Of a stretch of DNA of 64,000 bases, positions 27,177 through 39,945 are shown piece after piece; position 1 is the first letter of the stretch; each line of letters begins with the position of its first letter. A program made the position numbers and the translations under genes. The notes beneath the pieces were generated by a model. It was not told where the DNA came from. It was given only the letters and a program-made list of their open reading frames with translations, and ran no database searches. This stretch comes from a virus (taxonomy: Duplodnaviria > Caudoviricetes). The stretch lies in the IMG/VR virus record IMGVR_UViG_3300032770_000022, positions 1,142 to 65,141 of that record; one strand, 5' to 3'.

Positions 27177-27466
27177 AGCGACCCGCCGTCCGCGTCGCCC
27201 TCGGCCTCGGCCTTGGCTGGCGAGGTATCTGCCTTCCTGGGCCTACCCGGCCGTTTCCGACCGTCTCCGTTGAGCCGGGCAATCAAGTCGCGCACCTCGT
27301 CCAGCCGCGCCTGGGTCATCGCCAGTTGCATGCCGTGTTTCGCCTCATCGGCGACAAGCTGGCGTTCCCGCTCCAGCAACGCGGCCAGAGCGGGTGACAC
27401 AGAGGTCTCGTCCATCGGTATCCTCCGGTTGTTGCGGGTCGGTCGGTAGGCGGTGACGATCGTCAT
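27173..27466 (-). CDS. Coiled-coil protein with AT-hook-like RPGRPRK
   Basis: Translation of ORF. Confidence 0.5.
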   Translation of the reverse strand: MTIVTAYRPTRNNRRIPMDETSVSPALAALLERERQLVADEAKHGMQLAMTQARLDEVRDLIARLNGDGRKRPGRPRKADTSPAKAEAEGDADGGSL

Positions 27467-28947: not shown

Positions 28948-30271
28948 CGCCCATCGCTCGAAGGGCTGGCGCGCATCGCAGAAGCGGCGGGACGGAGGGC
29001 TGGAGCTAGAGCTCGACCTGCCCACGCTGCACGAGGACCAGGCGCGGGCCTACAACATGCCGGCGCGGTTCAAGGCGATCCGGGCGGGCAGGCGCTGGGG
29101 CAAGACGAGTCTTGCAGAGCTGGTCGCGATCGACGCGGCGGTGCGCGGCGAGTACGTGGGCTGGTTCGCCCCTGAGTACAAGTTCCTGTCGGAAGCCTAT
29201 ACCGACATCGCCGGGCAGATGGCGCCGCTGATCTGGTCATCGTCCAAGGTCGAGGGCGTGATGCGCACTACGACAGGCGGGCGCATCGACTTCTGGTCGC
29301 TGGACAATGAGCGCGCGGGCCGGTCGAGGCGCTACCACAAGGTCATTATCGACGAGGGCGCGTTCACCAAGCCGAACATGATGGACATCTGGGACAAGTC
29401 CATCCGGCCCACGCTGGTCGACTACCGAGGCTCCGCGCTGGTCACGTCCAACACGAACGGCATCGACGCGACCAACTTCTTCTACTCGATCTGCAACGAC
29501 CCGAAGCACCAGTTCAAGCAGTACCACGCGCCGACGCACCGCAATCCGTACATGCCGGCGGACGAGCTCGCGGAGATCGAGGCGAAGACGCACCCGCTGG
29601 TCTATCAGCAGGAATACCTCGCCGAGTTCGTGGACTGGTCGGGGCAGGCGTTCTTCAGCCAGATGTCGCTGCTCGACAAGGACGGCCACGCCTATCCCTA
29701 TCCGGTCGTGTGCGACGCGGTGTTCGCGGTGGCCGACACCGCGATCAAGGACAAGAGTGAGAACGACGGAACTGCGGTGACGTTTTACGGCCGCAACCGC
29801 GCGGTGCCCGGCGTGCCGCTGCTGATCCTGGACTGGGACATCATCCAGGTGCAGGGATCGCTGCTCGAGGTCTGGCTCGCCAAGGTGTTCGAGCGCCTGG
29901 AGCAATTGGCGAAGATGTGCCGGGCGCGGCACGGCTCGGTAGGTGCATGGATCGAGGACAAGGGATCGGGTACGATCCTGCTACAGCAGGCACGCAGGCG
30001 GGGCTGGGACGCGCACCCGATCGACAACGACCTGACGAAGCTCGGCAAAGACGCCAGGGCGATCAACGTCTCGGGCTACGTGCATCGCGGCATGGTCAAG
30101 TTCACGCAGCCCGCTTACGACCGCGTGGTGACCTACAAGGGCGTAACGCGCAACCATCTGCTCGCCCAGGTCGTCGGCTACCGTGTGGGCATCGACAGCG
30201 GCGCGGACGACGCGCTGGACACGTTCACCTACGGCGTGGCTATCGCGCTCGGTGATGCCAAGGGGTTCTGA
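28919..30271 (+). CDS. terL: Terminase large subunit
   Basis: 'AGRRWGKT' Walker A, 'IIDEG' Walker B, 'YQQEYLAEF', nuclease 'ADTA', 'IEDKGSG', 'DDALD'. Confidence 0.93.
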   Translation: MVQTQTIQLDAHRSKGWRASQKRRDGGLELELDLPTLHEDQARAYNMPARFKAIRAGRRWGKTSLAELVAIDAAVRGEYVGWFAPEYKFLSEAYTDIAGQMAPLIWSSSKVEGVMRTTTGGRIDFWSLDNERAGRSRRYHKVIIDEGAFTKPNMMDIWDKSIRPTLVDYRGSALVTSNTNGIDATNFFYSICNDPKHQFKQYHAPTHRNPYMPADELAEIEAKTHPLVYQQEYLAEFVDWSGQAFFSQMSLLDKDGHAYPYPVVCDAVFAVADTAIKDKSENDGTAVTFYGRNRAVPGVPLLILDWDIIQVQGSLLEVWLAKVFERLEQLAKMCRARHGSVGAWIEDKGSGTILLQQARRRGWDAHPIDNDLTKLGKDARAINVSGYVHRGMVKFTQPAYDRVVTYKGVTRNHLLAQVVGYRVGIDSGADDALDTFTYGVAIALGDAKGF

Positions 30272-31752
30272 TGTCCGACAGCTTCAACTCCCCTCCGTCA
30301 TCGACGCTGAACGCGGGCGGCTCGCAGCTCGGCACGGAGTTGATGTCGCTGCTGATCGCCAACGACATCCAGCCCGGTGACTCGCCGTCCTACCAGATAT
30401 GCAAGACGATCTATCTCTATCACCCGCTCGGCGCGAAGATGGTCGAGGCGCCGCTGAACATCGCGCAGTCCCAGGCGCGCGAGATCGACGTGCCGGGCCA
30501 TCCCGAGCGCGTGGCGCGCGCCTTCCTCGACGAATGGAAGCGCCTGCACACGGACGTGCTGATCTTTAACACCGCGAGGACCGCGCGCATCTACGGCATC
30601 TCGTCGGTGGTCGTGGGCGCGGTGGACAAGCCCACGAACGCGCCGCTGACGCCCAAGGAGCTCGCCGGCGAGCAGCTTTTCTTCAACGTGCTGGACCCGC
30701 TGAACACGGCGGGCAGCCTGGTGCTGAACCAGAACCCGAACTCGCCCGACTTCCAGGCGGCGACGACCGTGGTGACCGGCGGGCAGACGTACCACCGCTC
30801 CCGCGTCTGCATCATCATGAACGAACAGCCGATCTACATCGCCTACACAAGCTCGTCCTTCGGCTTCGTCGGCCGCTCGGTCTACCAGCGCGCGCTGTTC
30901 CCGCTCAAGTCCTTCATCAACACGATGATCGCGGACGACATGATCGCGCGGAAGCTCGGGCTGCTGATCGCCAAGATGGAGGCGCCGTCGTCCGTCATCG
31001 ACAAGATGATGACCGGCCTGCTCGGCATGAAGCGCGCGCTGCTCCAGCAGGCGCAGACGGACAACGTGCTGGGCATCGGCAAAGAGGAAGACATCGCCAC
31101 GCTGAACATGATGAACGTGGACGGCGCGGGCACATATTCGCGTAACGATATTCTGAAAAATTGCGCAACCGCAGCGGATATGCCGGCGGTGCTGTTGGAG
31201 AATGAGACGTTAGTGCAAGGCTTCGGCGAGGGGAGGGAAGACGCAAAACGCATTGCTGAATATGCCGACCGCGTGCGCGAATGGATGCAGCCGCTATACG
31301 ACTTCTTCGACGGCATCGTGCAGCAGCGTGCATGGAACCGAGACTTCTTCGCCTCGATGCAGCAGGATGATCCCGAGACTTATGGCAATATGCGTTATGA
31401 GGCGGCGCTGTCCAAGTGGCGCGCAGCGTTCACCGCGACTTGGCCATCGTTACTGCGAGAACCTGAATCGGAACGAGTCAAAGTTGATGATACTAGGCTC
31501 AGGGCAACCATCGCACTGATGCAAGTCATGGTGCCGATGCTCGATCCGACCAATAAGGCGACGTTCTTCTCGTTCGTCGAGGATGCGATCAACTCCGCTG
31601 AAATGTTGTTCCCTGGTAAGTTGACGTTGGATGTCGAGGCTCTGGCTGATTTTACCCCGCCGACACCAGGCATGAATGGCGAAAGCGGGGATCAGGGAGG
31701 TGGCTTGGCTCAGCCAAAACCACCAGCATTCAGAATGAAGGCTGCCGCCTGA
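30271..31752 (+). CDS. Portal protein (DUF1073-like)
   Basis: Position after TerL; 'ARIYG', 'YHRSR', 'GRSVY', 'AADMP..LL'. Confidence 0.85.
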   Translation: MSDSFNSPPSSTLNAGGSQLGTELMSLLIANDIQPGDSPSYQICKTIYLYHPLGAKMVEAPLNIAQSQAREIDVPGHPERVARAFLDEWKRLHTDVLIFNTARTARIYGISSVVVGAVDKPTNAPLTPKELAGEQLFFNVLDPLNTAGSLVLNQNPNSPDFQAATTVVTGGQTYHRSRVCIIMNEQPIYIAYTSSSFGFVGRSVYQRALFPLKSFINTMIADDMIARKLGLLIAKMEAPSSVIDKMMTGLLGMKRALLQQAQTDNVLGIGKEEDIATLNMMNVDGAGTYSRNDILKNCATAADMPAVLLENETLVQGFGEGREDAKRIAEYADRVREWMQPLYDFFDGIVQQRAWNRDFFASMQQDDPETYGNMRYEAALSKWRAAFTATWPSLLREPESERVKVDDTRLRATIALMQVMVPMLDPTNKATFFSFVEDAINSAEMLFPGKLTLDVEALADFTPPTPGMNGESGDQGGGLAQPKPPAFRMKAAA

Positions 31753-31753
31753 T

Positions 31754-31782
31754 TTGCTTTGGTGCGTTGGTCTGCATACAAT
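31754..31782 (+). promoter_or_regulatory. Sigma70-type promoter of guide array A
   Basis: TTGCTT (31754-59), 17-nt spacer, TACAAT (31777-82). Confidence 0.7.
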
Positions 31783-31789
31783 CGGCCTC

Positions 31790-31929
31790 GGCTCGGCAAG
31801 GCATGGATTGCCAAGGCAACGCTGGGTGCGGCACGACGCGTCGCGGCAGGCATGGCACGACCCGGCGCGGCTCGGTATGTCAAGGCTCGGTATGGCGTGG
31901 TGAAAGAGGCGGCTTCGGTCGCCTCTTTC
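31790..31929 (+). ncRNA. GGY-NN pentamer guide array A (two units separated by GGCA) with 3' hairpin
   Basis: 11 + 10 in-register pentamers (ggc-tc ggc-aa ggc-at gga-tt ...), then GAAAGAGGCGGC-TTCG-GTCGCCTCTTTC. Confidence 0.8.
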
Positions 31930-31940
31930 TTTGCCCGCAT

Positions 31941-32095
31941 TTGACAAACGGAACAGGGACGGCTTAGGGTCGCATCGCGTTGCCATCACAGCGCAAGCGC
32001 GATGCTGATCCAGGACTTCCAATGGCCCCGGTGATGCTTCGCATCCCCTGTGTTCGCGCCGGGCGTGATGGGCCGGGCGCCATTGGAGGGCTAAC
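31941..32095 (+). promoter_or_regulatory. Promoter and structured 5' leader of the RAMP-like gene
   Basis: TTGACAAACGGAACAGG; CTTCCAATGGC (32016-26) pairs with GCCATTGGAGG (32079-89), covering the RBS. Confidence 0.55.
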
Positions 32096-32812
32096 ATGCC
32101 ACTAGACCAAGCAACTGCCGGGCGGCGTTCCCGCACGGAGAAGATCACCATCCCGTCGCTGTCTGCGGCGGAAATCGAAGCAGCCAAGGCAGCCGGACAG
32201 CCAGAGATCATCCGGATCGAAAAGCCGAAGCTGCGCACGGCCTCCATCCCGATCGTTGGTATCTCGCCATACGTGCAGCATGCGTTCAGCGAGAAGCAGC
32301 GGAAGAAGATGGAGGAGACGCAGCGGGCCGGACAGCAGGCGCGCGGCAAGAAGAACCGCCAGCCCAAGGACTTCGAGGAGGTCTACGAGGCCGCGAAGCA
32401 CATCAGCAAGGACGGCTGGTGCGGCATTCCGGCTCCCGCATTCCGCAACGCGATGATCGACGCGTGCCGGCTCGTGGGCTTCAAGATGACGCACGCCAAG
32501 CTGTCGGTATTCGTCGAGGCTGACGGGTTCGATCGCAACGACGGGACACCGCTAGTCAAGATCGTCGGCGAGCCGCACATCCACGAGGCGGCGGTGCGCA
32601 ACGACAGCGGCGTGGCGGACATCCGCTGGCGGCCGATGTGGGACGAGTGGTCCGCGCTCGTGCGTGTCACCTGGGACGAGGACCAGTTCTCGGCAACGGA
32701 CGTAATGAATCTGATGCTCCGCGCCGGCTTGCAGGTGGGCATCGGGGAGGGACGGCCCAACAGCCCGAAGTCGAACGGGCTGGGCTGGGGCCGGTTCGAG
32801 GTGAAGTCATGA
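32096..32812 (+). CDS. Stand-alone RAMP/Cas7-like RNA-binding protein, candidate guide effector
   Basis: 'IPIVGISPY' (beta1), 'GIPAPAFRNAM' (RAMP IPxSxLKG-type motif) and C-terminal Gly-rich loop 'GIGEGRP...GLGWGRFEV'. Confidence 0.75.
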   Translation: MPLDQATAGRRSRTEKITIPSLSAAEIEAAKAAGQPEIIRIEKPKLRTASIPIVGISPYVQHAFSEKQRKKMEETQRAGQQARGKKNRQPKDFEEVYEAAKHISKDGWCGIPAPAFRNAMIDACRLVGFKMTHAKLSVFVEADGFDRNDGTPLVKIVGEPHIHEAAVRNDSGVADIRWRPMWDEWSALVRVTWDEDQFSATDVMNLMLRAGLQVGIGEGRPNSPKSNGLGWGRFEVKS

Positions 32813-33249
32813 GCGCGCGCATCCAAGCTGAATTGCTCACTCTGCGCGACAGCAACGGCATCATCGACGCCCGCCGTGCCGTCGATTGGGCGAAGCAGCA
32901 CCAGGACAGCGCCTTGTATCAGGCGCTCGAATGGGACGATGCGACGGCGGCGATCGAATACCGCATCAGTCAGGTGCGGCGCTTGATCGCGGTGCATATC
33001 GTGGACGCAGAAGGCCATCGGCAGGTCGTGTCGCTGTCGGTCGATCGCCAACAGGGCGGCGGCTATCGCAGCGTCCAGGACGTGCTGTCGGTCGATGACC
33101 TGCGTGCGGTGATGCTGTCCGACGCGCTCGAAGAATTGCAGCGAGTTCAGCGGAAATATGAGTATCTACAAGAACTGGCGAAAGTCTGGGAAGCCGCTCA
33201 GCAGGTCGAGCAGGAGACGCGACCGAGGCGCCGCCGCCGCGCGGCGTGA
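32809..33249 (+). CDS. Helical partner protein of the RAMP-like gene
   Basis: ATGA-coupled; 'LEWDDATAAIEYRISQVRRLI' motif; 146 aa. Confidence 0.7.
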   Translation: MSARIQAELLTLRDSNGIIDARRAVDWAKQHQDSALYQALEWDDATAAIEYRISQVRRLIAVHIVDAEGHRQVVSLSVDRQQGGGYRSVQDVLSVDDLRAVMLSDALEELQRVQRKYEYLQELAKVWEAAQQVEQETRPRRRRRAA

Positions 33250-33258
33250 TCACGATCA

Positions 33259-33590
33259 GGCAGGGCAGGCGGAGCATGGACCGTTCCGTCCTGGCATGGC
33301 GTGGCACGCTAGGGCTCAGCAGGCGGAGCATGGAGGGCAGGGTCGGGCGCGTCGCGTTAAGGCTGTGCTTGGCGCGGTTCGGGATGGCTCGGCAGGCTCG
33401 GCAAGGTTCGGCGCGATCAGGCCTGTCCAGGTCAGACTCGGCATTGCGGGGTAGGGCAGGCATGGCCCGGCAGGCGGAGCTTCGCTTGGCGCGGTCAGGC
33501 ATAGACCGGACCGGATCGGCAGGCTCGGTTAGGCGCGGCGCGAAGCGGCATGTCGCTGCTCGGCTGGTCCTGGAACGGCAGGCATGGAGG
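33259..33590 (+). ncRNA. GGY-NN pentamer guide array B (about five long units plus short ones, delimited by GGCA/AGCA)
   Basis: About 60 in-register pentamers; 4-nt delimiters at 33264, 33318, 33391, 33455, 33469, 33518, 33577. Confidence 0.8.
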
Positions 33591-33596
33591 TAGCCG

Positions 33597-34421
33597 GTGG
33601 CAACTTCTTTCTTCCAAGTTGTCACCGACGCCATCAATGACGTTGCCGAATTCGGATACGAATCAGAGGAACGGCTAGCGTATTGGCTAACGGAGATACG
33701 CCAGGCAGCCGAGCGCGATCTGATCTCCGAGGGCGGGCTACAGGCGCAACTCGATCGCGTGCTGGTCGCGACGTACCAGCGGCTGGTGGATCGCGGTCGC
33801 GTGTTGCAGCGCCATTCCGGGATCGCGAGATATACGCTCGAACAACTGCGGCCGCAGCTCCGTGCTGAACTGGATCGCAGAATCGCGGCATCCGCGAACC
33901 TGATCCGGCTCAATCGCGCGACGGCGATCAACGAAACGTTGCAACGGTTCTCTGGATGGGCGTCGTCCGTTCCCGCCGGCGGGACCGACATTACGAACCG
34001 ACGAGAGGTCAAAGCTAACGTCCGCAAGTCACTGGCAGGACTGCCGTTTGAGACCCGGCGTGTACTCGTGGACCAATCACATAAACTCTCGGCTGCGATC
34101 TCCGACATCGTTGCGATGGACCAAGATGCGATCGGCGCCGAGTGGCACTCGCACTGGCGCCAGCAAAACTATCAATATCGACCGGAACACAAAGCCAGAG
34201 ACGGGATCGTGTATCCGGTCAAGGACAGTTGGGCCGCGCAGCGCAGGTTCGTCAAAGCGGACGAGCATGGATTTTACGAAGATCACGAACGCGCAGGCGA
34301 AATGATTTTCTGCCGCTGCTGGATTCGCTGGATTTACGCGCTCAGGGATATGCCGAAGGAACTGCTGACGGACGCGGGGCGCAGGGCACTCGCGGACGCG
34401 CGGGCGAAGGTGATGGCCTGA
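33597..34421 (+). CDS. Head morphogenesis / minor head protein (Mu F, SPP1 gp7-like)
   Basis: 'WHSH...YRPEH..RDG', 'FCRC'; position after portal; GTG start with GGAGG. Confidence 0.8.
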   Translation: MATSFFQVVTDAINDVAEFGYESEERLAYWLTEIRQAAERDLISEGGLQAQLDRVLVATYQRLVDRGRVLQRHSGIARYTLEQLRPQLRAELDRRIAASANLIRLNRATAINETLQRFSGWASSVPAGGTDITNRREVKANVRKSLAGLPFETRRVLVDQSHKLSAAISDIVAMDQDAIGAEWHSHWRQQNYQYRPEHKARDGIVYPVKDSWAAQRRFVKADEHGFYEDHERAGEMIFCRCWIRWIYALRDMPKELLTDAGRRALADARAKVMA

Positions 34422-34568
34422 TCCGAGATGCGCGCGACGGTCGCGCTCATGCCTGGCCGGGAGGCGGTTCCCGGTGTCGTTAGTGGACGTTTCCTCCCAA
34501 CCTTGAGCGGCGCGCGTCTCTCTGACCCCTTCCTTGGTGCGCCGCTTTCTTTTCCCCCCGGAGACGCG

Positions 34569-36518
34569 ATGCCCGGCTTCGAGCTGATGTCGGGCGTGGG
34601 GGAGGACGACGCTGCGGCGGCCGAGCGCATCATCGACGCGCGGCTGGCAGAGCTAGGAGCGAGGTATCCGCGCCTGATCGCGCTGCTGGGCGGCACGCAC
34701 ATACGGCTCGCGCCTGGGGCGTTGCTTGAGGATAGCTGGCACGGCCAGAGCGACCCGGGCCGCATCACGCTGCCGGTGGAGCTGAAACAGGACCGATCGC
34801 CCGCGTCGCCCGGCGGCAGGCGCGTCGAGTTCGAACCGTCCCTGCTCGGTGTGCTGGACCACGAGATCGGCCATGAGATCGAGGCCGGGTTCGCTAAGGC
34901 AGCGGGCCTGGATATCGGCGAGTTGTTCGCGCGCCAGGACAGGGCGGCGATCGAGACCGGTCTCTCGCCCTACGCGGCGCAGGACGAGCACGAGTGGTTC
35001 GCGGAAAGTCTCGCCGCATGGCTGCATCCCGAGCGCCCGGCGGTGCACTTCGACCTGGACCCCGATCTCGCGCAGGCGTTCCAGCGCATCCTGACGACGC
35101 GCGGCGCGCACGACGCATCGTGGTGGACGTATCAAGCATCATCGCCGACTCCATCGTGGGAAGAAGCAATCGCCGCCGGAGCGTTCAAAGGCAGCAAGTC
35201 TGAATGGGAAAGCCTGTCTCCCGGCATGCGCCGCGAGATATTGCGGACCTGGAAACGGAAAGCCGACAGCGCCGGCCTGATCACGGTGGACGACGGCGAG
35301 ATCACGCCTCACGTCGAGAAGCACGAGGCGGACTACACGAACACGGGCGACGTGGAGCATTGCCGGCTGTGCGAGTTCTGGCGGCCGCCCGATGCGTGCG
35401 CGCTGGTGATCGGCACGATCAGCCCGGTCGGCTGGTGCAAGTTTTTCCAATGGCCCGACGGGCGGGCCGACACCGCAGGCGAGGCAGGCGACGATCCGGC
35501 GCAGCCGCTGGTCCGTGGCGCGGGCATGCTGCTGATCCATCACGGCGACGGCGGCGACCGCGTGCTGTTTGTGCTCAACAGGGAGCGCGGCACCTGGGAA
35601 TTTCCCGGCGGCGCCATCGAGGGCGACGAGACCGCCGAGGAAGCGGCCAAGCGGGAGACGCTGGAGGAAGTCGGCGAGATACCCTACGGCAGCGTGTCGC
35701 TGATGCTGCGCGACCGCATGACCGGCGTGGACTACTCGACGTTCATGGCGCAGGCGACGGGCACGCCCGAGCCGACGCTGAGCGACGAGCACACGGCCTG
35801 GAAGTGGGCCGCGCCGGGAGAACCGCCCGAGCCGCTGCATCCCGGCGTGCGCCTCGCCCTGGCCCGCCTGGGCATGAACGAACTAGACCTCGCGCGGGCG
35901 ATCGCGTCGGGCGAGTACTCGAGTCCGCAGCAGTTCGAGAACATCTGGCTCTATGCGCTGCGCATCACCGGCACCGGGATCAGCTACCGGCCCGAGTTGA
36001 GTGAATTCGTCTGGCGCGATCCAAAGCTCTATCTCAATGCGGACTTCCTCGCACGCTGCAACGGCCTGGCCGTCATCTGGCAGCATCCGCCGGGGGAAAG
36101 CCTGACGCAGGACGAGTACGAGAACCGCGTGCTGGGCGCGATCATGCTGCCCTACGTCGCTGGCGACGAGGTGTGGGGCATCGCGAAGATTTACGACCAG
36201 GACGCGGCGCTGATGATGCTCAACCAGCAGCTATCGACCTCGCCAGCTGTCGTGTTCCGTGATCCTGGCGCGAATAAAATCCGCAAATTAACTGGCGGCA
36301 AGCATTTACTAATCGAGGCGGAGCCGTCACTCTTGGACCATCTCGCGATCTGTGGCTTGGGCGTATGGGACAAGGGCGGCAGCCCGACCGGCGTCGCTGT
36401 GGGCGAAGCAGAGATGGCAGATGGCCATATCGAGGTTCCAGATCGAGCGGACGCAATTGCCGAACTGAACCGTGCAATTGCTTGGATGGACCTCACAAGG
36501 GTCACGTCCGCGCTCTGA
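34569..36518 (+). CDS. Multidomain prohead protease-like protein: zincin HExxH + HiPIP-like Cys cluster + NUDIX + DUF2213
   Basis: 'HEIGH..YA...EWFAE'; 'CRLC..C..ISPVGWC'; Nudix box 'GGAIEGDETAEEAAKRETLEEVG'; 'RITGTG..YR..RDP..HP..LSTSP..DHLAIC..GVWD'. Confidence 0.8.
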   Translation: MPGFELMSGVGEDDAAAAERIIDARLAELGARYPRLIALLGGTHIRLAPGALLEDSWHGQSDPGRITLPVELKQDRSPASPGGRRVEFEPSLLGVLDHEIGHEIEAGFAKAAGLDIGELFARQDRAAIETGLSPYAAQDEHEWFAESLAAWLHPERPAVHFDLDPDLAQAFQRILTTRGAHDASWWTYQASSPTPSWEEAIAAGAFKGSKSEWESLSPGMRREILRTWKRKADSAGLITVDDGEITPHVEKHEADYTNTGDVEHCRLCEFWRPPDACALVIGTISPVGWCKFFQWPDGRADTAGEAGDDPAQPLVRGAGMLLIHHGDGGDRVLFVLNRERGTWEFPGGAIEGDETAEEAAKRETLEEVGEIPYGSVSLMLRDRMTGVDYSTFMAQATGTPEPTLSDEHTAWKWAAPGEPPEPLHPGVRLALARLGMNELDLARAIASGEYSSPQQFENIWLYALRITGTGISYRPELSEFVWRDPKLYLNADFLARCNGLAVIWQHPPGESLTQDEYENRVLGAIMLPYVAGDEVWGIAKIYDQDAALMMLNQQLSTSPAVVFRDPGANKIRKLTGGKHLLIEAEPSLLDHLAICGLGVWDKGGSPTGVAVGEAEMADGHIEVPDRADAIAELNRAIAWMDLTRVTSAL

Positions 36519-36521
36519 AAA

Positions 36522-36607
36522 GGAAAAGGCGGCCGAAGCCGCCCTTTCCACCATGCCATGCCGGGCCTCGCTCGTCCCAGCCACGCCTATCCTCGCCTTG
36601 ACGCACT
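36522..36607 (-). ncRNA. GGY-NN pentamer guide array C (one unit) with 3' hairpin
   Basis: Minus strand: gtc-aa ggc-ga gga-ta ggc-gt ggc-tg gga-cg agc-ga ggc-cc ggc-at ggc-at ggt, then GGAAAGGGCGGC-TTCG-GCCGCCTTTTCC. Confidence 0.8.
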
Positions 36608-36608
36608 G

Positions 36609-36637
36609 ATATTACCCGACCGCATAGCGGACGGCAA
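36609..36637 (-). promoter_or_regulatory. Sigma70-type promoter of guide array C
   Basis: TTGCCG, 17-nt spacer, TAATAT on the minus strand. Confidence 0.7.
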
Positions 36638-36736
36638 ACCCAACCCGATCAGGGATCGCCCCGGCCTGATCGGCTCTTTCTCGTGGGCAACACGATGCGC
36701 ACCGCCGATATGGCGTCGCAGCAGGAGACAACTGAA

Positions 36737-37876
36737 ATGGCTGACAATTCGTCTTCGCTTGAGGCGAAGCTCGATGTGCTTGTCGCCGCGACGACGAAGA
36801 TCGGCGAGGCGGTGACCGCTCAGAACGCACGAATGGACTCGATCGAACAGCGGATCGGCGCCCGCAAGGACGACGATGACAAGCGCGATGATGACCGGAA
36901 GCGGGACGACGACGACGACCGCAAGGATCGCCGTCGCGATGACGATGACCGTCGCCGGGATGATGCGCGCCGCCGCGCCGATGCCTTCAAGTTCAGCCCA
37001 CGCAAGGACGACGATGACGACGACGCGTTCAAGAAGCGTCGCGATGCGGAACAGGGCGAGCTTGAGAAGGAGTTGAAGGAAGGCGGCGAGGACGAGGGCA
37101 AGGCGAAGGAGACCGCTGCCGACCGCCGCAAGAAGGCGGACGACGACGACGACAAAGCGCGCAAGGATGCGATGGACAAGAAGCGCGACGATGCGCGCAA
37201 GCGGGCGGACGCGTTCAAGTTCTCGCCCAGGCACGACGACGACGACGACGACAAGGCGAAGTCGCGCAGGGACGCCGAGGAGGAAGAACTCGCGAAGGCG
37301 CACGAGGAAGGCGGCGACGACAAGGACGACGCCCGCCGCAAGGCCAAAGATGCGCGCAAGAAGGCCGACGACGACGACGACAAGAAGCGGGACGACGCGC
37401 GCCGCGACAGCACGTTCGACCGCCGGCTGCGCGATCTGGAGCGCGCCCGCAGCATGTCCGACGAGGAAGTCAACAAGCTCGCGGAGATGCAGCAGTCGTG
37501 GGCCGAGGTCGCTCAGGCGCACGGCCTGACGGTGCACCGCACGGTCGACGGCGACACGCCGGAGAGCTTCAACCGCAGGCAGGCCAAGCGCTTCCAGAAG
37601 TTCTCCAAGAAGTGGAAGGACGAGGACCTCGGCGGGCTGCCGACCACGACGATGACCAACATCGCCGGGCCGGAAATCCGCACGGATTCGATCAAAGCCG
37701 CTTACCAGGGCGTCGGTGCCGAACCTGGAGTTTTACGGGAGATCAAGCGCTACGATCGAGTGGGCCGGCCGATAAGCGAGTTCAGCGGCCCGATCAGCGC
37801 GATGCTGGACCAGTTCAGCCTGCCGAACATGAAGGTCGTCGGCGGCATCAACCCGCAGCGCGCCGCCGGCTTCTGA
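36737..37876 (+). CDS. Capsid scaffold-like protein, D/K/R-rich with internal duplication
   Basis: Between protease and capsid genes; duplicated 'RADAFKFSPR..DDDDD..RRDAE' block. Confidence 0.7.
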   Translation: MADNSSSLEAKLDVLVAATTKIGEAVTAQNARMDSIEQRIGARKDDDDKRDDDRKRDDDDDRKDRRRDDDDRRRDDARRRADAFKFSPRKDDDDDDAFKKRRDAEQGELEKELKEGGEDEGKAKETAADRRKKADDDDDKARKDAMDKKRDDARKRADAFKFSPRHDDDDDDKAKSRRDAEEEELAKAHEEGGDDKDDARRKAKDARKKADDDDDKKRDDARRDSTFDRRLRDLERARSMSDEEVNKLAEMQQSWAEVAQAHGLTVHRTVDGDTPESFNRRQAKRFQKFSKKWKDEDLGGLPTTTMTNIAGPEIRTDSIKAAYQGVGAEPGVLREIKRYDRVGRPISEFSGPISAMLDQFSLPNMKVVGGINPQRAAGF

Positions 37877-38780: not shown

Positions 38781-38898
38781 AAAACGGCTGGCTCCGAAGA
38801 ACCAGCCGTTTTTCCACTCCATGTCTCGCCCCGCCTCGGCTGGCCGTTTCCAGACGTGCCCAGCCCCGCCTCGCCTCCATGCCAACCCGGCTCGCGCC
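38781..38898 (-). ncRNA. GGY-NN pentamer guide array D with 3' hairpin
   Basis: Minus strand: 12 in-register pentamers (38875 to 38816) plus about 4 upstream, then AAAAACGGCTGGTTC-TTCG-GAGCCAGCCGTTTT. Confidence 0.8.
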
Positions 38899-38931: not shown

Positions 38932-39945
38932 ATGGCCACAATCAGCCCGAGCTGGACGCAGGTGCATCCGAGTTTCATCGAGCCGGACATCCTGCTTCAG
39001 TACAACCAGGCGTCCGGTTTCCGCTATCTCCTCGCCGGTTCGGAGCCTCGTACGAAAATCGGCAGCGAGGACCTCTACGTTTACATTAAGCGGATGGATA
39101 TACGCACGCGCGTCTCGTCCGCGCAGGCGGCGGGCAACCAGCTTCCGTCTGTCTCGGTGTCGATGAACATGATATCGACGCCGACCTATCTCGATCGGGT
39201 GCGCGCGGAGTACGACCACCACGACACGGCTGCGACCGCCGAGTGGGGCGCGTCCATCGTCGAGGTGCAGCGTCTTGGCATGCGGCAGGGATGCAACCAG
39301 CTCCTCCGCAACAAGACGCTGTATGGCCTCAATCCTGGCGAGGGGATCGTCAATACGCCCAGCGCGACCACCGTCTCGCTGCCGGCGGATACCAACGGCA
39401 ACACGACGTTCTCGACCTACGACAACGGGCAACTTGCGCTGTTCCTGTTGACGCAGATCACCGCGCTCAAGTCGCGCACGATGCAGTTCGGCATGCCCAA
39501 CCGGTTCCAGTTCCTCGGGCCGCAGCGCATCTTGGGCGGCATGGCGACGCAGAACATCGTGCAGCTTGTCCAGTACCAGCGGCCCGGCGCGGGCACCGAC
39601 ACGACGCGCGGGCTTGTCACGAAGGTCGAGGAGGAACAGGGCGACGAAATCCTGTGGACCTACGACGATACGCTGATCGGGAGGGGATCGGGCGGCACGG
39701 ACCTGATCATCCTGGCCATGCCAGAGGTGAGAAAGCCCACGGCATCGCCATTCAACACCAACGAGTTCGCCAATCTCGCGCCCGGGCTGGACGCGTGCCT
39801 GCTCCAGTACATCGACATGCCTGCGCCTCGGGAGATTCCAACGCCGCTGCCGGGCGGGGCGATTGATGTGGTGTCTGAATGGCGTTCGACATGCGGCTGG
39901 GCACCGAGGCCAGAAGCGGTTACACTGATCAGCATGGGCTTCTGA
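38932..39945 (+). CDS. Major capsid protein
   Basis: 337 aa, position after the cement gene, followed by a hairpin. Confidence 0.75.
   Translation: MATISPSWTQVHPSFIEPDILLQYNQASGFRYLLAGSEPRTKIGSEDLYVYIKRMDIRTRVSSAQAAGNQLPSVSVSMNMISTPTYLDRVRAEYDHHDTAATAEWGASIVEVQRLGMRQGCNQLLRNKTLYGLNPGEGIVNTPSATTVSLPADTNGNTTFSTYDNGQLALFLLTQITALKSRTMQFGMPNRFQFLGPQRILGGMATQNIVQLVQYQRPGAGTDTTRGLVTKVEEEQGDEILWTYDDTLIGRGSGGTDLIILAMPEVRKPTASPFNTNEFANLAPGLDACLLQYIDMPAPREIPTPLPGGAIDVVSEWRSTCGWAPRPEAVTLISMGF

What the first reader, a model, noticed from the sequence alone, without database searches (positions are those of the whole stretch)
31754..33596. Candidate RNA-guided system: lone RAMP/Cas7-like gene, partner gene and GGY-NN pentamer guide arrays, with no CRISPR array
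Seen: a two-gene cassette is inserted between the portal and head-morphogenesis genes. It is flanked on both sides by non-coding tracts with strict 5-nt periodicity: a near-constant GGY triplet alternates with a variable dinucleotide, and 4-nt GGCA delimiters cut the tracts into units of about 9-12 pentamers. Two more tracts lie at 36550-36607 and 38816-38898 on the minus strand. Established: the 238-aa protein has RAMP hallmarks (beta1 ..SP, IPxxxF/L(K/R) motif, C-terminal Gly-rich loop GIGxxR...GxGRF) of Cas7-type proteins that polymerise on RNA with fixed periodicity. Inference: one subunit binds each pentamer, GGY is the scaffold and the NNs are a gapped guide. No cas1/2/3/5/6/8/10 is present. 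From memory only, not verified here, this resembles recently reported viral GGY/NN guide (VIPR-type) systems, so the literature should be checked before claiming novelty.
Basis: partly seen in the sequence, partly recalled or inferred. Interest (0 to 1): 0.97.

Follow-up and report, generated by a model that had tools for sequence, protein, structure and literature searches.

The report
Phage VIPR system aimed at capsid genes
This phage carries a VIPR system, a CRISPR-like RNA-guided DNA silencer first described in 2026, and one of its guide RNAs spells out the capsid gene of related phages while the phage's own capsid gene uses different serine codons that the guide does not match.

Summary
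It is a VIPR system (bioRxiv 10.64898/2026.04.26.720920, .720927, 10.64898/2026.10.15.759431).

- **Protein:** the 238-aa protein folds as a minimal Cas7-type RAMP (VIA Z 10.7). A family profile hits the solved SUSP1 Vipr at E 6.8e-9.
- **Partner gene:** it is translationally coupled and recurs in 84 of 125 homologue loci.
- **Tracts:** period-5 GGY/NN tracts lie next to the homologue in 79 of 80 viral loci and 40 of 45 other loci. The 4-nt GGCA steps fit the published 'staggered array'.
- **Code:** guides of relatives follow the published 1-nt-skip code. Matches of at least 90% number 12 at skip 1, against 3, 1 and 1 at other skips.

New here: two solo guide genes with terminator hairpins sit inside the head module. 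One matches codons 3-14 of the major capsid gene in 34 of 80 related phages (up to 22/24), but only 16/24 in its own gene. All three serines there are AGY instead of TCN.

Expression is untested, and six of nine guides have no target. This scan has noted VIPR loci before on other DNA (531 notes). Verdict: a new member of a known kind, of moderate interest.

The parts
31754..31782 (+). Possible promoter of the upstream mini-array: TTGCTT, 17 nt, TACAAT
   Evidence: Read from the sequence. The consensus scan did not flag it because its -35 hexamer matches only 3 of 6. Inference only.
31785..31844 (+). vrRNA U.1: 12 GGY-NN units (the first may lie before the RNA start), closed by the 4-nt GGCA step at 31845-31848
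   Evidence: Parse. Its best 1-nt-skip hit in the whole genome is the phage's own portal gene.
31849..31903 (+). vrRNA U.2: 11 units, the cleanest guide (9 of 11 perfect GGY)
31902..31929 (+). 12-bp hairpin with a UUCG loop followed by a U-rich run: terminator or 3' tail of U.2
   Evidence: strand folding.
32096..32812 (+). vipr, a 238-aa minimal RAMP
   Evidence: phrog_4652. Model pLDDT 75.7. RAMP fold. SUSP1 Vipr at E 0.0076, 2.5e-4 and 6.8e-9. 4240 homologues.
32809..33249 (+). vap-like accessory gene, 146 aa, coupled to vipr by an ATGA overlap
   Evidence: phrog_15946. Found after vipr in 29 of 45 loci and 84 of 125 loci. Model pLDDT 93.8. No significant fold match, only weak winged-helix rows.
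33263..33590 (+). Downstream staggered vrRNA array: guides D.1-D.5 (9-12 units each) plus three short segments, separated by GGCA or AGCA steps. Its last bases hold the GGAGG ribosome site of the next gene.
   Evidence: No terminal hairpin.
36522..36607 (-). Solo vrRNA S1: 12 units at 36607-36548, then a 12-bp UUCG hairpin and a U run
38782..38875 (-). Solo vrRNA S2: 13 units at 38875-38811, then a 13-bp UUCG hairpin and a U run. It is antisense to the capsid gene leader.
   Evidence: z -3.49.
38938..38973 (+). The phage's own capsid gene, codons 3-14: the cognate site of S2, matched only 16/24, with Ser codons AGC, AGC and AGT
31141..31176 (+). Portal gene site matched by U.1 in codon register (18/24)
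35997..36032 (+). Site in gene 34428-36518 matched by S1 in codon register (own 16/24; relative G001 18/24 at the homologous place)
   Evidence: Not significant alone.

Best explanation
The locus is a VIPR system in a roughly 65-kb tailed phage from an environmental assembly. It comprises:
- vipr (32096-32812);
- a coupled vap-like gene (32809-33249);
- an upstream two-guide mini-array that ends in a terminator hairpin;
- a downstream 'staggered' array of five full guides;
- two solo guide genes on the opposite strand inside the head module.

By homology with the SUSP1 system, one Vipr protomer binds each GGY-NN unit. The GGY bases are sequestered. The NN bases pair with double-stranded DNA that reads NNx NNx, so every third base is skipped, and transcription of the bound gene is silenced.

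The targets are genes of competing relatives. Solo guide S2 is aimed at codons 3-14 of the major capsid gene of related phages. The phage's own capsid gene is spared because its three serines use AGY codons where the guide expects TCN, and one residue differs.

Shown here: fold, homology, co-occurrence, array anatomy, excess of skip-1 matches, and the capsid match with its self-mismatch. Inferred: transcription, processing at the GGCA steps, RNP assembly and silencing.
For: (1) Fold and homology. VIA-align gives Z 10.7 over 148 residues (rmsd 3.3) to 6s6b_I, and all 21 chains at Z >= 8 are RAMPs. Foldseek gives E 6.6e-5 and probability 1.00 to a chain of the L. lactis Csm complex. The A3 profile hits SUSP1 Vipr (36pp_D) at E 6.8e-9. 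In that alignment, residues the paper reports as contacting the RNA line up with family-invariant ones: SUSP1 R138 with R179, R179 with R220, and D177 with E218.

(2) Co-occurrence. 79 of 80 viral loci have a + strand tract within 1.5 kb of the homologue. Density is 0.80 per kb near it and 0.015 per kb far from it. 40 of 45 other loci also have tracts, including a cyanophage, a Mycobacterium phage and a Gordonia phage.

(3) Array grammar shared with relatives. GGCA accounts for 796 of 1682 4-nt steps, and the commonest spacing is 8-11 units.

(4) Strand and ends. Three guides end in 12-13-bp UUCG hairpins followed by U runs.

(5) Code. 501 guides of relatives were scanned against 1.18 Mb with the arrays masked. 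Best matches of at least 0.90 number 12 at skip 1, against 3, 1 and 1 at skips 0, 2 and 3. Matches of at least 0.95 number 3 against 0, 0 and 0. Three of the hits lie in rival vipr genes in wobble register, and one 20/20 hit lies in a Sak4-like gene.

(6) S2 and the capsid gene. In the own genome the best six-frame decoded match is the adjacent capsid gene, at 11 of 13 positions (null mean 6.8, max 9). Among 80 capsid homologue loci the nucleotide match is at least 20/24 in 34, with a best of 22/24 (null max 20/26). The own gene scores 16/24.

(7) Serine codons. All three own Ser codons at the site are AGY. AGY makes up 29% of 518 Ser codons in the phage, so P is 0.024. Relatives use TCN at 19 of 20, 28 of 33 and 55 of 60 serines at those positions.

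(8) A possible victim. The best-matched relative, G001, is a complete 70.6-kb genome with no vipr and no tract.

(9) No self-hit reached the papers' 80% threshold when each guide was taken as parsed.
Against: - Nothing shows that the tracts are transcribed or bound. No RNA data were available.
- Only 59 of 102 units are perfect GGY. The paper reports that GGY substitutions abolish silencing (passage), so parts of the downstream array may be decaying.
- U.2 and D.1-D.5 have no target above null in the own genome, in 125 vipr loci, in 80 capsid loci, in 59 portal loci or in G001.
- U.1 matches the phage's own portal gene about as well (18/24) as portal genes of others (19/24). If its first unit is not transcribed, the self-match is 18/22, which is above the 80% threshold. 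This does not fit a pure 'non-self only' picture.
- SUSP1 W178, which stacks on G2, aligns with Gly here.
- The 80 capsid loci are related to each other, so 34 of 80 is not 34 independent events.
- The capsid lead came from another first-reader note. I tested it, but after it was suggested.
Confidence: 0.85

Rival explanations
1. The guides act mainly on the phage's own head genes, as an RNA-guided timer or dosage control of portal, capsid and the neighbouring genes. Partial matches would be enough for this, and each guide sits next to the gene it regulates.
For: For three guides (U.1, S1, S2) the best or joint-best match in the own genome lies within about 60-610 nt of the guide and in codon register. 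U.1 matches the own portal gene at 18/24, or 18/22 if the first unit is not transcribed.
Against: S2 matches relatives much better (22/24) than self (16/24), and the self-mismatches are three synonymous Ser family switches. That is what escape looks like, not regulation. The papers report no self-targeting above 80% in their systems (section read). S1's self-match is at null level.
Confidence: 0.1
2. The system is a decaying remnant. vipr may still be intact, but the eroded arrays no longer make working guides, and the capsid match is a fossil of past conflict.
For: GGY conformity is 4-9 perfect units per guide of 9-13, far below the clean arrays of relatives. The array shows internal partial duplications. 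Six guides have no target.
Against: vipr and vap are intact, and the family-invariant residues are kept in the window's protein. The three guides with terminators keep perfect 12-13-bp hairpins. [quoted passage not shown] S2 still matches living relatives at 92%.
Confidence: 0.08
3. The tracts are DNA-level elements, such as protein-binding iterons or recombination sites, and the RAMP-like protein has an unrelated RNA-binding role.
For: No expression data exist. The consensus promoter scan found nothing.
Against: The tracts are on the same strand as vipr in 79 of 80 loci, while - strand tracts occur near it in 6 of 80. Terminator hairpins lie exactly at tract ends. The protein is homologous to a Vipr that was solved bound to such RNA. 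The skip-1 excess makes sense only for a base-pairing guide.
Confidence: 0.02

Closest known systems
Type II VIPR of Escherichia phage SUSP1 (Vipr, Vap1 and vrRNAs; bioRxiv 10.64898/2026.04.26.720920 and .720927; PDB 36pp)
   Same: Phage-borne two-gene cassette with no CRISPR array. Minimal RAMP with thumb and G-loop, homologous at E 6.8e-9. GGY/NN pentamer guides of 9-13 units on both sides of the genes. Targets read with a 1-nt skip in wobble register.
   Different: The protein is 238 aa against 202 aa, and alignable by sequence only over about 50 residues. The stacking Trp of the G-loop is Gly here. The guides are joined by 4-nt GGCA steps instead of each carrying a pseudoknot tail; three guides end in a plain UUCG hairpin. 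The accessory protein is of unknown relation to Vap1, whose sequence I did not have.
[quoted passage not shown]
   Same: The legend says successive vrRNAs derive from positions overlapping by 1 nt, so that the end of one marks the start of the next. A 4-nt step every 8-12 pentamers, here and in relatives, is what a 1-nt overlap of two pentamer registers looks like.
   Different: I saw only the legend, not the figure or the type tables. Which of the seven types uses this layout, and whether it is this clade, is untested.
Solo (orphan) vrRNAs of F5 satellites and VIPR-null SUSP1-like phages (bioRxiv 10.64898/2026.10.15.759431)
   Same: Stand-alone guide genes away from vipr. Targets in rivals, wobble-aligned. 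Self-match lower than the match to rivals (sections read).
   Different: Here the solo guides are in a phage that has its own vipr, and they lie inside the head module next to the phage's own version of the targeted gene. The target is a major capsid gene, not a recombinase, vipr or another vrRNA. The self-mismatch comes from Ser codon-family switches.
Class 1 CRISPR backbone subunits (Cas7, Csm3, Cmr4)
   Same: RRM core, thumb and glycine-rich loop. One subunit per fixed RNA period. Best structural matches.
   Different: No CRISPR array, no Cas1 and no Pfam RAMPs match. The period is 5 nt with 2 pairing bases, rather than 6 nt with 5 pairing bases.

Membership tests
VIPR system | Vipr protein: a minimal RAMP (single RRM core, thumb, G-loop) homologous to published Vipr proteins | tested here: met
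   VIA Z 10.7 and 10.6 to a type III-B Cmr and a type III-A Csm subunit, with all 21 chains at Z >= 8 being RAMPs. Foldseek probability 1.00. hmmsearch of profile A3 against PDB sequences hits SUSP1 Vipr 36pp_D at E 6.8e-9.
VIPR system | Tandem YNNGG (GGY/NN) repeats of at least 4 units in intergenic DNA beside vipr | tested here: met
   Nine runs of 9-13 units. Period-5 power 9.4-10.6 against a window mean of 2.1. 5 tracts against 0.9 in shuffles.
VIPR system | GGY conserved, NN hypervariable | tested here: met
   Information content is 1.39, 0.93 and 0.73 bits at G1, G2 and Y3, against 0.03 and 0.07 bits at the NN positions. All 16 dinucleotides are used. The same holds over 17,951 units of relatives.
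VIPR system | Minimal locus: vipr plus one vap gene, with no CRISPR array and no cas genes | tested here: met
   Two coupled ORFs. The partner recurs in 84 of 125 loci. TRF gives 0 rows. No Cas1 and no Pfam RAMPs in the 65-kb record. Other cas families were not searched singly.
VIPR system | Association of protein and repeats across homologues | tested here: met
   79 of 80 viral loci (the best 80 of 337 found) and 40 of 45 other loci. Tract density is 52-fold higher near vipr than far from it.
VIPR system | Targets follow the 1-nt-skip (NNx) rule, mostly in wobble register | tested here: met
   Clade level: 12 guides with matches of at least 0.90 at skip 1, against 3, 1 and 1 at skips 0, 2 and 3. 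Window level: S2 against capsid genes, up to 22/24 in codon register. In silico only.
VIPR system | RNA-contact residues of SUSP1 Vipr (R138, D177, W178, R179) | tested here: inconclusive
   In the HMMER alignment, R138 aligns with R179 (family-invariant), R179 with R220 (family-invariant), D177 with E218 (conservative, nearly invariant) and W178 with G219 (not kept).
VIPR system | Structured invariable 3' tail on each vrRNA (a pseudoknot in the SUSP1 clade) | tested here: inconclusive
   Three guides end in a similar UUCG hairpin. Array-internal guides have only the GGCA step. No pseudoknot was sought. The paper says array architectures vary between types.
VIPR system | vrRNAs are expressed and co-purify with Vipr; guide-dependent silencing | not testable with these tools
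   Needs small-RNA sequencing, a pull-down and a reporter.
VIPR system | Assignment to one of the seven published types | not testable with these tools
   The types are defined in Fig. 5A, fig. S16 and data S4.
CRISPR-Cas class 1 (orphan Cas7) | Association with a CRISPR array and other cas genes; match to curated Cas7/RAMP families | tested here: not met
   No array, no Cas1, and no Pfam, NCBIfam or PADLOC match for the protein.

The most novel reading that the evidence does not exclude
The solo guide genes and the phage's own recoded alleles form linked 'poison-antidote' pairs. Each guide sits beside the phage's own version of the head gene whose rival alleles it silences, and the own version is made immune by synonymous switches between six-fold codon families (Ser TCN to AGY).

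In mixed infection the guide would shut down the capsid gene of any related co-infecting phage. Only genomes or recombinants that carry the linked resistant allele would be spared, which is an allele-specific exclusion or drive mechanism.

It would also show a synonymous escape route from a code that the published work presents as proof against synonymous change.
Probability: 0.3. Interest if true: 0.75.

Novelty: new member of a known kind. Interest (0 to 1): 0.45.

Why it matters
VIPR is a months-old class, and natural targets are known for only a few clades. This locus adds three things.

- **Wider support for the code.** The 1-nt-skip code holds, in silico, in a clade that is alignable to SUSP1 Vipr by sequence only over about 50 residues.
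- **A new target.** A guide is aimed at the major capsid gene of related, VIPR-less phages. The main texts of the two papers I searched for this do not mention such a target.
- **A testable account of self versus non-self.** The phage's own site differs from the guide mainly by Ser TCN/AGY switches. The papers argue that skipping the wobble base blocks synonymous escape. Six-fold degenerate codons would be a loophole, and a two-reporter experiment can test it.

Tried and rejected
**Expression.** No RNA holder was listed for the locus. Only two DNA runs were listed, one of them the likely source sample.

**Accessory protein.** There was no Pfam, NCBIfam, PADLOC or PDB-sequence match.
- Foldseek against the PDB gave nothing at E <= 0.001. 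The best rows were winged-helix proteins at E about 0.3.
- VIA-align (wide search) gave only helical-hairpin rows at Z <= 6.9.
- The protein atlas gave only viral hypothetical clusters.
- A DNA-binding role is therefore a guess.

**Other RNA and signal scans.**
- No hammerhead or other Rfam family turned up at the arrays. There were two weak unrelated rows below gathering score.
- The consensus promoter scan found 0 sites. Its terminator scan missed the three hairpins, which contain G-U pairs. I folded them instead.

**Tract 27202-27291 (- strand).** It has period-5 power of 8.09. I rejected it as a tract because it parses poorly and reads like coding sequence.

**Guides without targets.** U.2 and D.1-D.5 have no match above shuffled-guide nulls in any set I could scan. 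No guide of a relative hits the window's vipr or vap above 81%.

**Searches that found nothing or failed.**
- Megablast of 20 kb of the window against the phage collection gave no match.
- The search for related loci with the C-terminal part of gene 34428-36518 found no relative.
- My first hairpin finders were too strict. By eye, relatives also have minus-strand solo units followed by hairpins.

**Not run: target scan of whole public collections.** The NNx target patterns would be changed or joined sequence typed into a call, which the rules bar. I did not scan IMG/VR, metagenomes or genomes with them. I scanned only DNA already fetched, inside scripts.

**Not seen.** I could not see the VIPR type tables and figures (Fig. 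5A, figs S16-S18, data S3/S4, tables S2/S3). They may already list this clade, its vap type or capsid targets.
Full report
**What is there.** The window is almost the whole of a 65,141-base virus record. IMG/VR classes the record as linear, and CheckV puts it at 100% complete. Between the portal gene (30271-31752) and the head-morphogenesis gene (33597-34421) lie two ORFs that overlap by ATGA: 32096-32812 (238 aa) and 32809-33249 (146 aa). Non-coding DNA flanks them on both sides.

Period-5 power of GG is highest in the window at four places:
- 31765-31916 and 33314-33591 on the + strand;
- 36534-36679 and 38803-38881 on the - strand.

A phased-GG detector finds five tracts, all at these places, against 0.9 per shuffled window. 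A dynamic-programming parse gives nine runs of 9-13 GGY-NN units, separated in the arrays by 4-nt GGCA (once AGCA) steps. GGY is conserved (G 90%, G 78%, Y 87%) and NN is close to random. The exception is 'strict': only 59 of 102 units are perfect GGY.

**The protein.**
- Family libraries: Pfam, NCBIfam and PADLOC give nothing. PHROGs gives phrog_4652, of unknown function.
- Fold: an AlphaFold model built on 29 sequences (pLDDT 75.7) matches CRISPR backbone RAMPs. Foldseek puts chains of Csm, Cmr and type VII complexes on top, with probability up to 1.00. A full scan of 48,161 chains puts a type III-B Cmr subunit (Z 10.7, 148 residues, rmsd 3.3) and a type III-A Csm subunit (Z 10.6) on top, and all 21 chains at Z >= 8 are RAMPs.
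- Sequence: the PDB sequence file holds 'SUSP1 Vipr protein' (36pp). It is hit at E 0.0076 by the protein alone, at 2.5e-4 by a profile of close relatives, and at 6.8e-9 by a profile of 24 diverse relatives.
- Aligned stretch: this is the thumb-to-G-loop part. The cryo-EM paper names R138, D177, W178 and R179 as the contacts to G1, G2 and Y3 (section read). They align with R179, E218, G219 and R220 here. The two arginines are invariant in the family alignment and the acid is nearly so. The tryptophan is not kept.

**Literature.** A full-text search found the VIPR papers. From 10.64898/2026.04.26.720920 I read the Results, the Discussion and three Methods sections. From .720927 I read two Results sections. 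From 10.64898/2026.10.15.759431 I read one Results section, one Methods section and the Discussion. From 10.64898/2026.10.21.760802 I read passages only.

They define VIPR by these features:
- a phage-borne minimal RAMP (Vipr);
- usually one accessory gene (vap);
- vrRNAs of 9-16 YNNGG repeats with a 3' tail;
- DNA recognition by the NN bases with one skipped base per unit, usually the codon wobble base;
- seven types, including 'staggered arrays with overlapping vrRNAs';
- solo vrRNAs on satellites and on phages without vipr.

**Association across homologues.** The family is large: 4240 proteins at E <= 0.001.
- In 45 loci from named genomes and phages, 40 have a period-5 tract. The set includes a cyanophage, a Mycobacterium phage and a Gordonia phage.
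- In the best 80 of 337 viral-contig loci, 79 have a same-strand tract within 1.5 kb of the gene. Only 6 have one on the other strand. Tract density is 0.80 per kb near the gene against 0.015 per kb further away.
- Relatives show the same grammar, but cleaner: runs of mostly 8-11 units between 4-nt steps, of which GGCA makes up 796 of 1682. A one-base shortening at each boundary is what the paper's fig. S18 legend describes as vrRNAs overlapping by 1 nt. I saw only the legend.

**The partner gene.** It recurs directly after vipr in 29 of 45 loci and 84 of 125 loci. It belongs to phrog_15946, as do the partners in the Mycobacterium phage and the cyanophage. Its model is confident (pLDDT 93.8) but matches nothing significantly. 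An N-terminal part weakly resembles winged-helix domains, and the C-terminus is a helical hairpin.

**RNA ends.** U.2, S1 and S2 each run into a perfect 12-13-bp hairpin with a UUCG loop and a U-rich run. Each hairpin is preceded by a similar short motif. The downstream array has no hairpin, and its end supplies the ribosome-binding site of the head-morphogenesis gene. A -10-like TACAAT with a weak -35 lies just upstream of U.1 (read; not flagged by the scan). No hammerhead was found.

**Does the clade use the published code?** I took 501 distinct guides from the relatives' arrays. I scanned them against 1.18 Mb (all 125 vipr loci plus this genome, with arrays masked) at 0, 1, 2 or 3 skipped bases.

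| Best match | skip 0 | skip 1 | skip 2 | skip 3 |
|---|---|---|---|---|
| at least 0.90 | 3 | 12 | 1 | 1 |
| at least 0.95 | 0 | 3 | 0 | 0 |

Three skip-1 hits lie inside the vipr gene of another phage, with the skipped base at the wobble position. One 20/20 hit lies in a Sak4-like annealing-protein gene. This repeats the paper's test on a different clade and gives the same answer.

**What do this phage's guides aim at?** As parsed, no guide has a self-match at 80% or more, and none hits the 125 vipr loci above null. I tested this in four steps.
- Own genome: read on the capsid coding strand as NNx codons, S2 is compatible with 11 of 13 residues of ATISPSWTQVHPS (38935-38973). This is the best hit in all six frames of the window, against a null of mean 6.8 and max 9 in 100 unit-shuffles. 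At nucleotide level the own gene matches only 16/24.
- Relatives: I fetched 80 capsid homologues from viral contigs. S2 hits the homologous site at up to 22/26, against a null max of 20. Over the 12 units that align to codons 3-14, 34 of 80 loci match at 20/24 or more, with a best of 22/24.
- Mismatches: the own gene's four mismatched dinucleotides are three serines encoded AGC, AGC and AGT where the guide reads TC, plus one Thr for Val.
- Codon usage: AGY is 29% of 518 Ser codons in 20 genes of this phage (P = 0.024 for three of three). Relatives use TCN at these serines in 19 of 20, 28 of 33 and 55 of 60 cases.

The best-matched relative (G001, capsid 75% identical) is a complete 70.6-kb genome with no vipr and no period-5 tract. 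None of 78 capsid-homologue loci has a tract upstream of the capsid gene. None of the 125 vipr loci has this phage's head genes beside vipr. The cassette and its solo guides therefore look like insertions peculiar to this phage's head module.

**The weaker cases.**
- U.1's best skip-1 hit in the genome is the phage's own portal gene, 610 nt upstream and in register. It scores 18/24 (null max 17) and 9 of 12 decoded residues (null max 8). In 59 portal homologues the same site scores up to 19/24 (null max 18). Self and non-self are thus about equal. If the first unit lies before the RNA start, the self-match is 18/22, above the papers' threshold. This does not fit simple self-avoidance, and it keeps an autoregulatory reading alive.
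- S1 matches gene 34428-36518 at 16/24 in register, which is null level. The homologous site of G001 scores 18/24, with eight consecutive perfect units.
- U.2 and D.1-D.5 have no identified target.

**Mechanism, with its status.**
- Shown here: the RAMP fold, homology to a solved Vipr, the conserved gene pair, co-occurrence with same-strand GGY/NN arrays, the array grammar, terminator hairpins, the skip-1 signal in the clade, and the capsid match with a recoded self site.
- Inferred from the SUSP1 work: transcription of the tracts, cutting or ending at the GGCA steps, one protomer per unit, pairing of NN with NNx DNA, and silencing.
- Not known: the role of the partner protein, the host, and the targets of six guides.

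**Novelty.** This is a new member of a known kind. This scan has also met VIPR loci many times on other DNA: 531 notes in at least 399 genomes. One of them (e1-6059674) reads another cassette as aimed at the neighbouring gene's allele in relatives that lack it. These are unchecked AI notes and I did not test them. What seems unreported is a capsid-gene target and self-immunity through Ser TCN/AGY switching. The terms six-fold, sixfold, serine codon and AGY in that sense, and major capsid or portal as a target, are absent from the main texts searched.

Noticed in passing
window 34428-36518: A 696-aa head-module protein combines a NUDIX hydrolase domain (Pfam E 1e-14, residues 363-475) with phrog_6216 (E 1.7e-100). 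The next gene, 36683-37876, matches the C-terminal part of the same PHROG, as if one family were split or duplicated across two genes.
   Followed up: no
L076 7399-7448 -> L078 2611; L059 -> L061 6319; L060 -> L057 6355; L010 -> L009 1215: Guides of related phages have near-perfect skip-1 matches in other phages. One is 20/20 in a Sak4-like annealing-protein gene. Three are 90-95% inside rival vipr genes, in wobble register.
   Followed up: partly
window 33251-33587: The downstream array contains partial internal duplications. For example, guide starts at 33386 and 33513 are 79% alike over 42 nt, and a 30-nt stretch recurs 54 nt apart. This hints that guides arise by local duplication and divergence.
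   Followed up: no
window 33577-33599: The last units of the array contain the GGAGG ribosome-binding site, five bases before the GTG start of the head-morphogenesis gene. Array and head gene are probably on one transcript (also noted in e1-6243033).
   Followed up: no
L127 and L128 capsid codons 5, 7 and 14: The two other closest capsid relatives each carry one AGY serine at a different one of the three positions, and L126 carries none. This is a possible trace of ongoing escape from such guides.
   Followed up: partly
L206 (G003:34092-37265): A relative by its capsid gene holds a very distant Vipr-like open frame (E 4.1e-5, 197 aa). Two short + strand period-5 tracts lie about 1 kb away on the opposite strand.
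   Followed up: no
window 34469-34560: A weak Rfam match to suhB/mmgR (29 bits, gathering score 41, E 0.0079) inside the start of gene 34428-36518. Probably chance.
   Followed up: no
I did not look at it.
   Followed up: no
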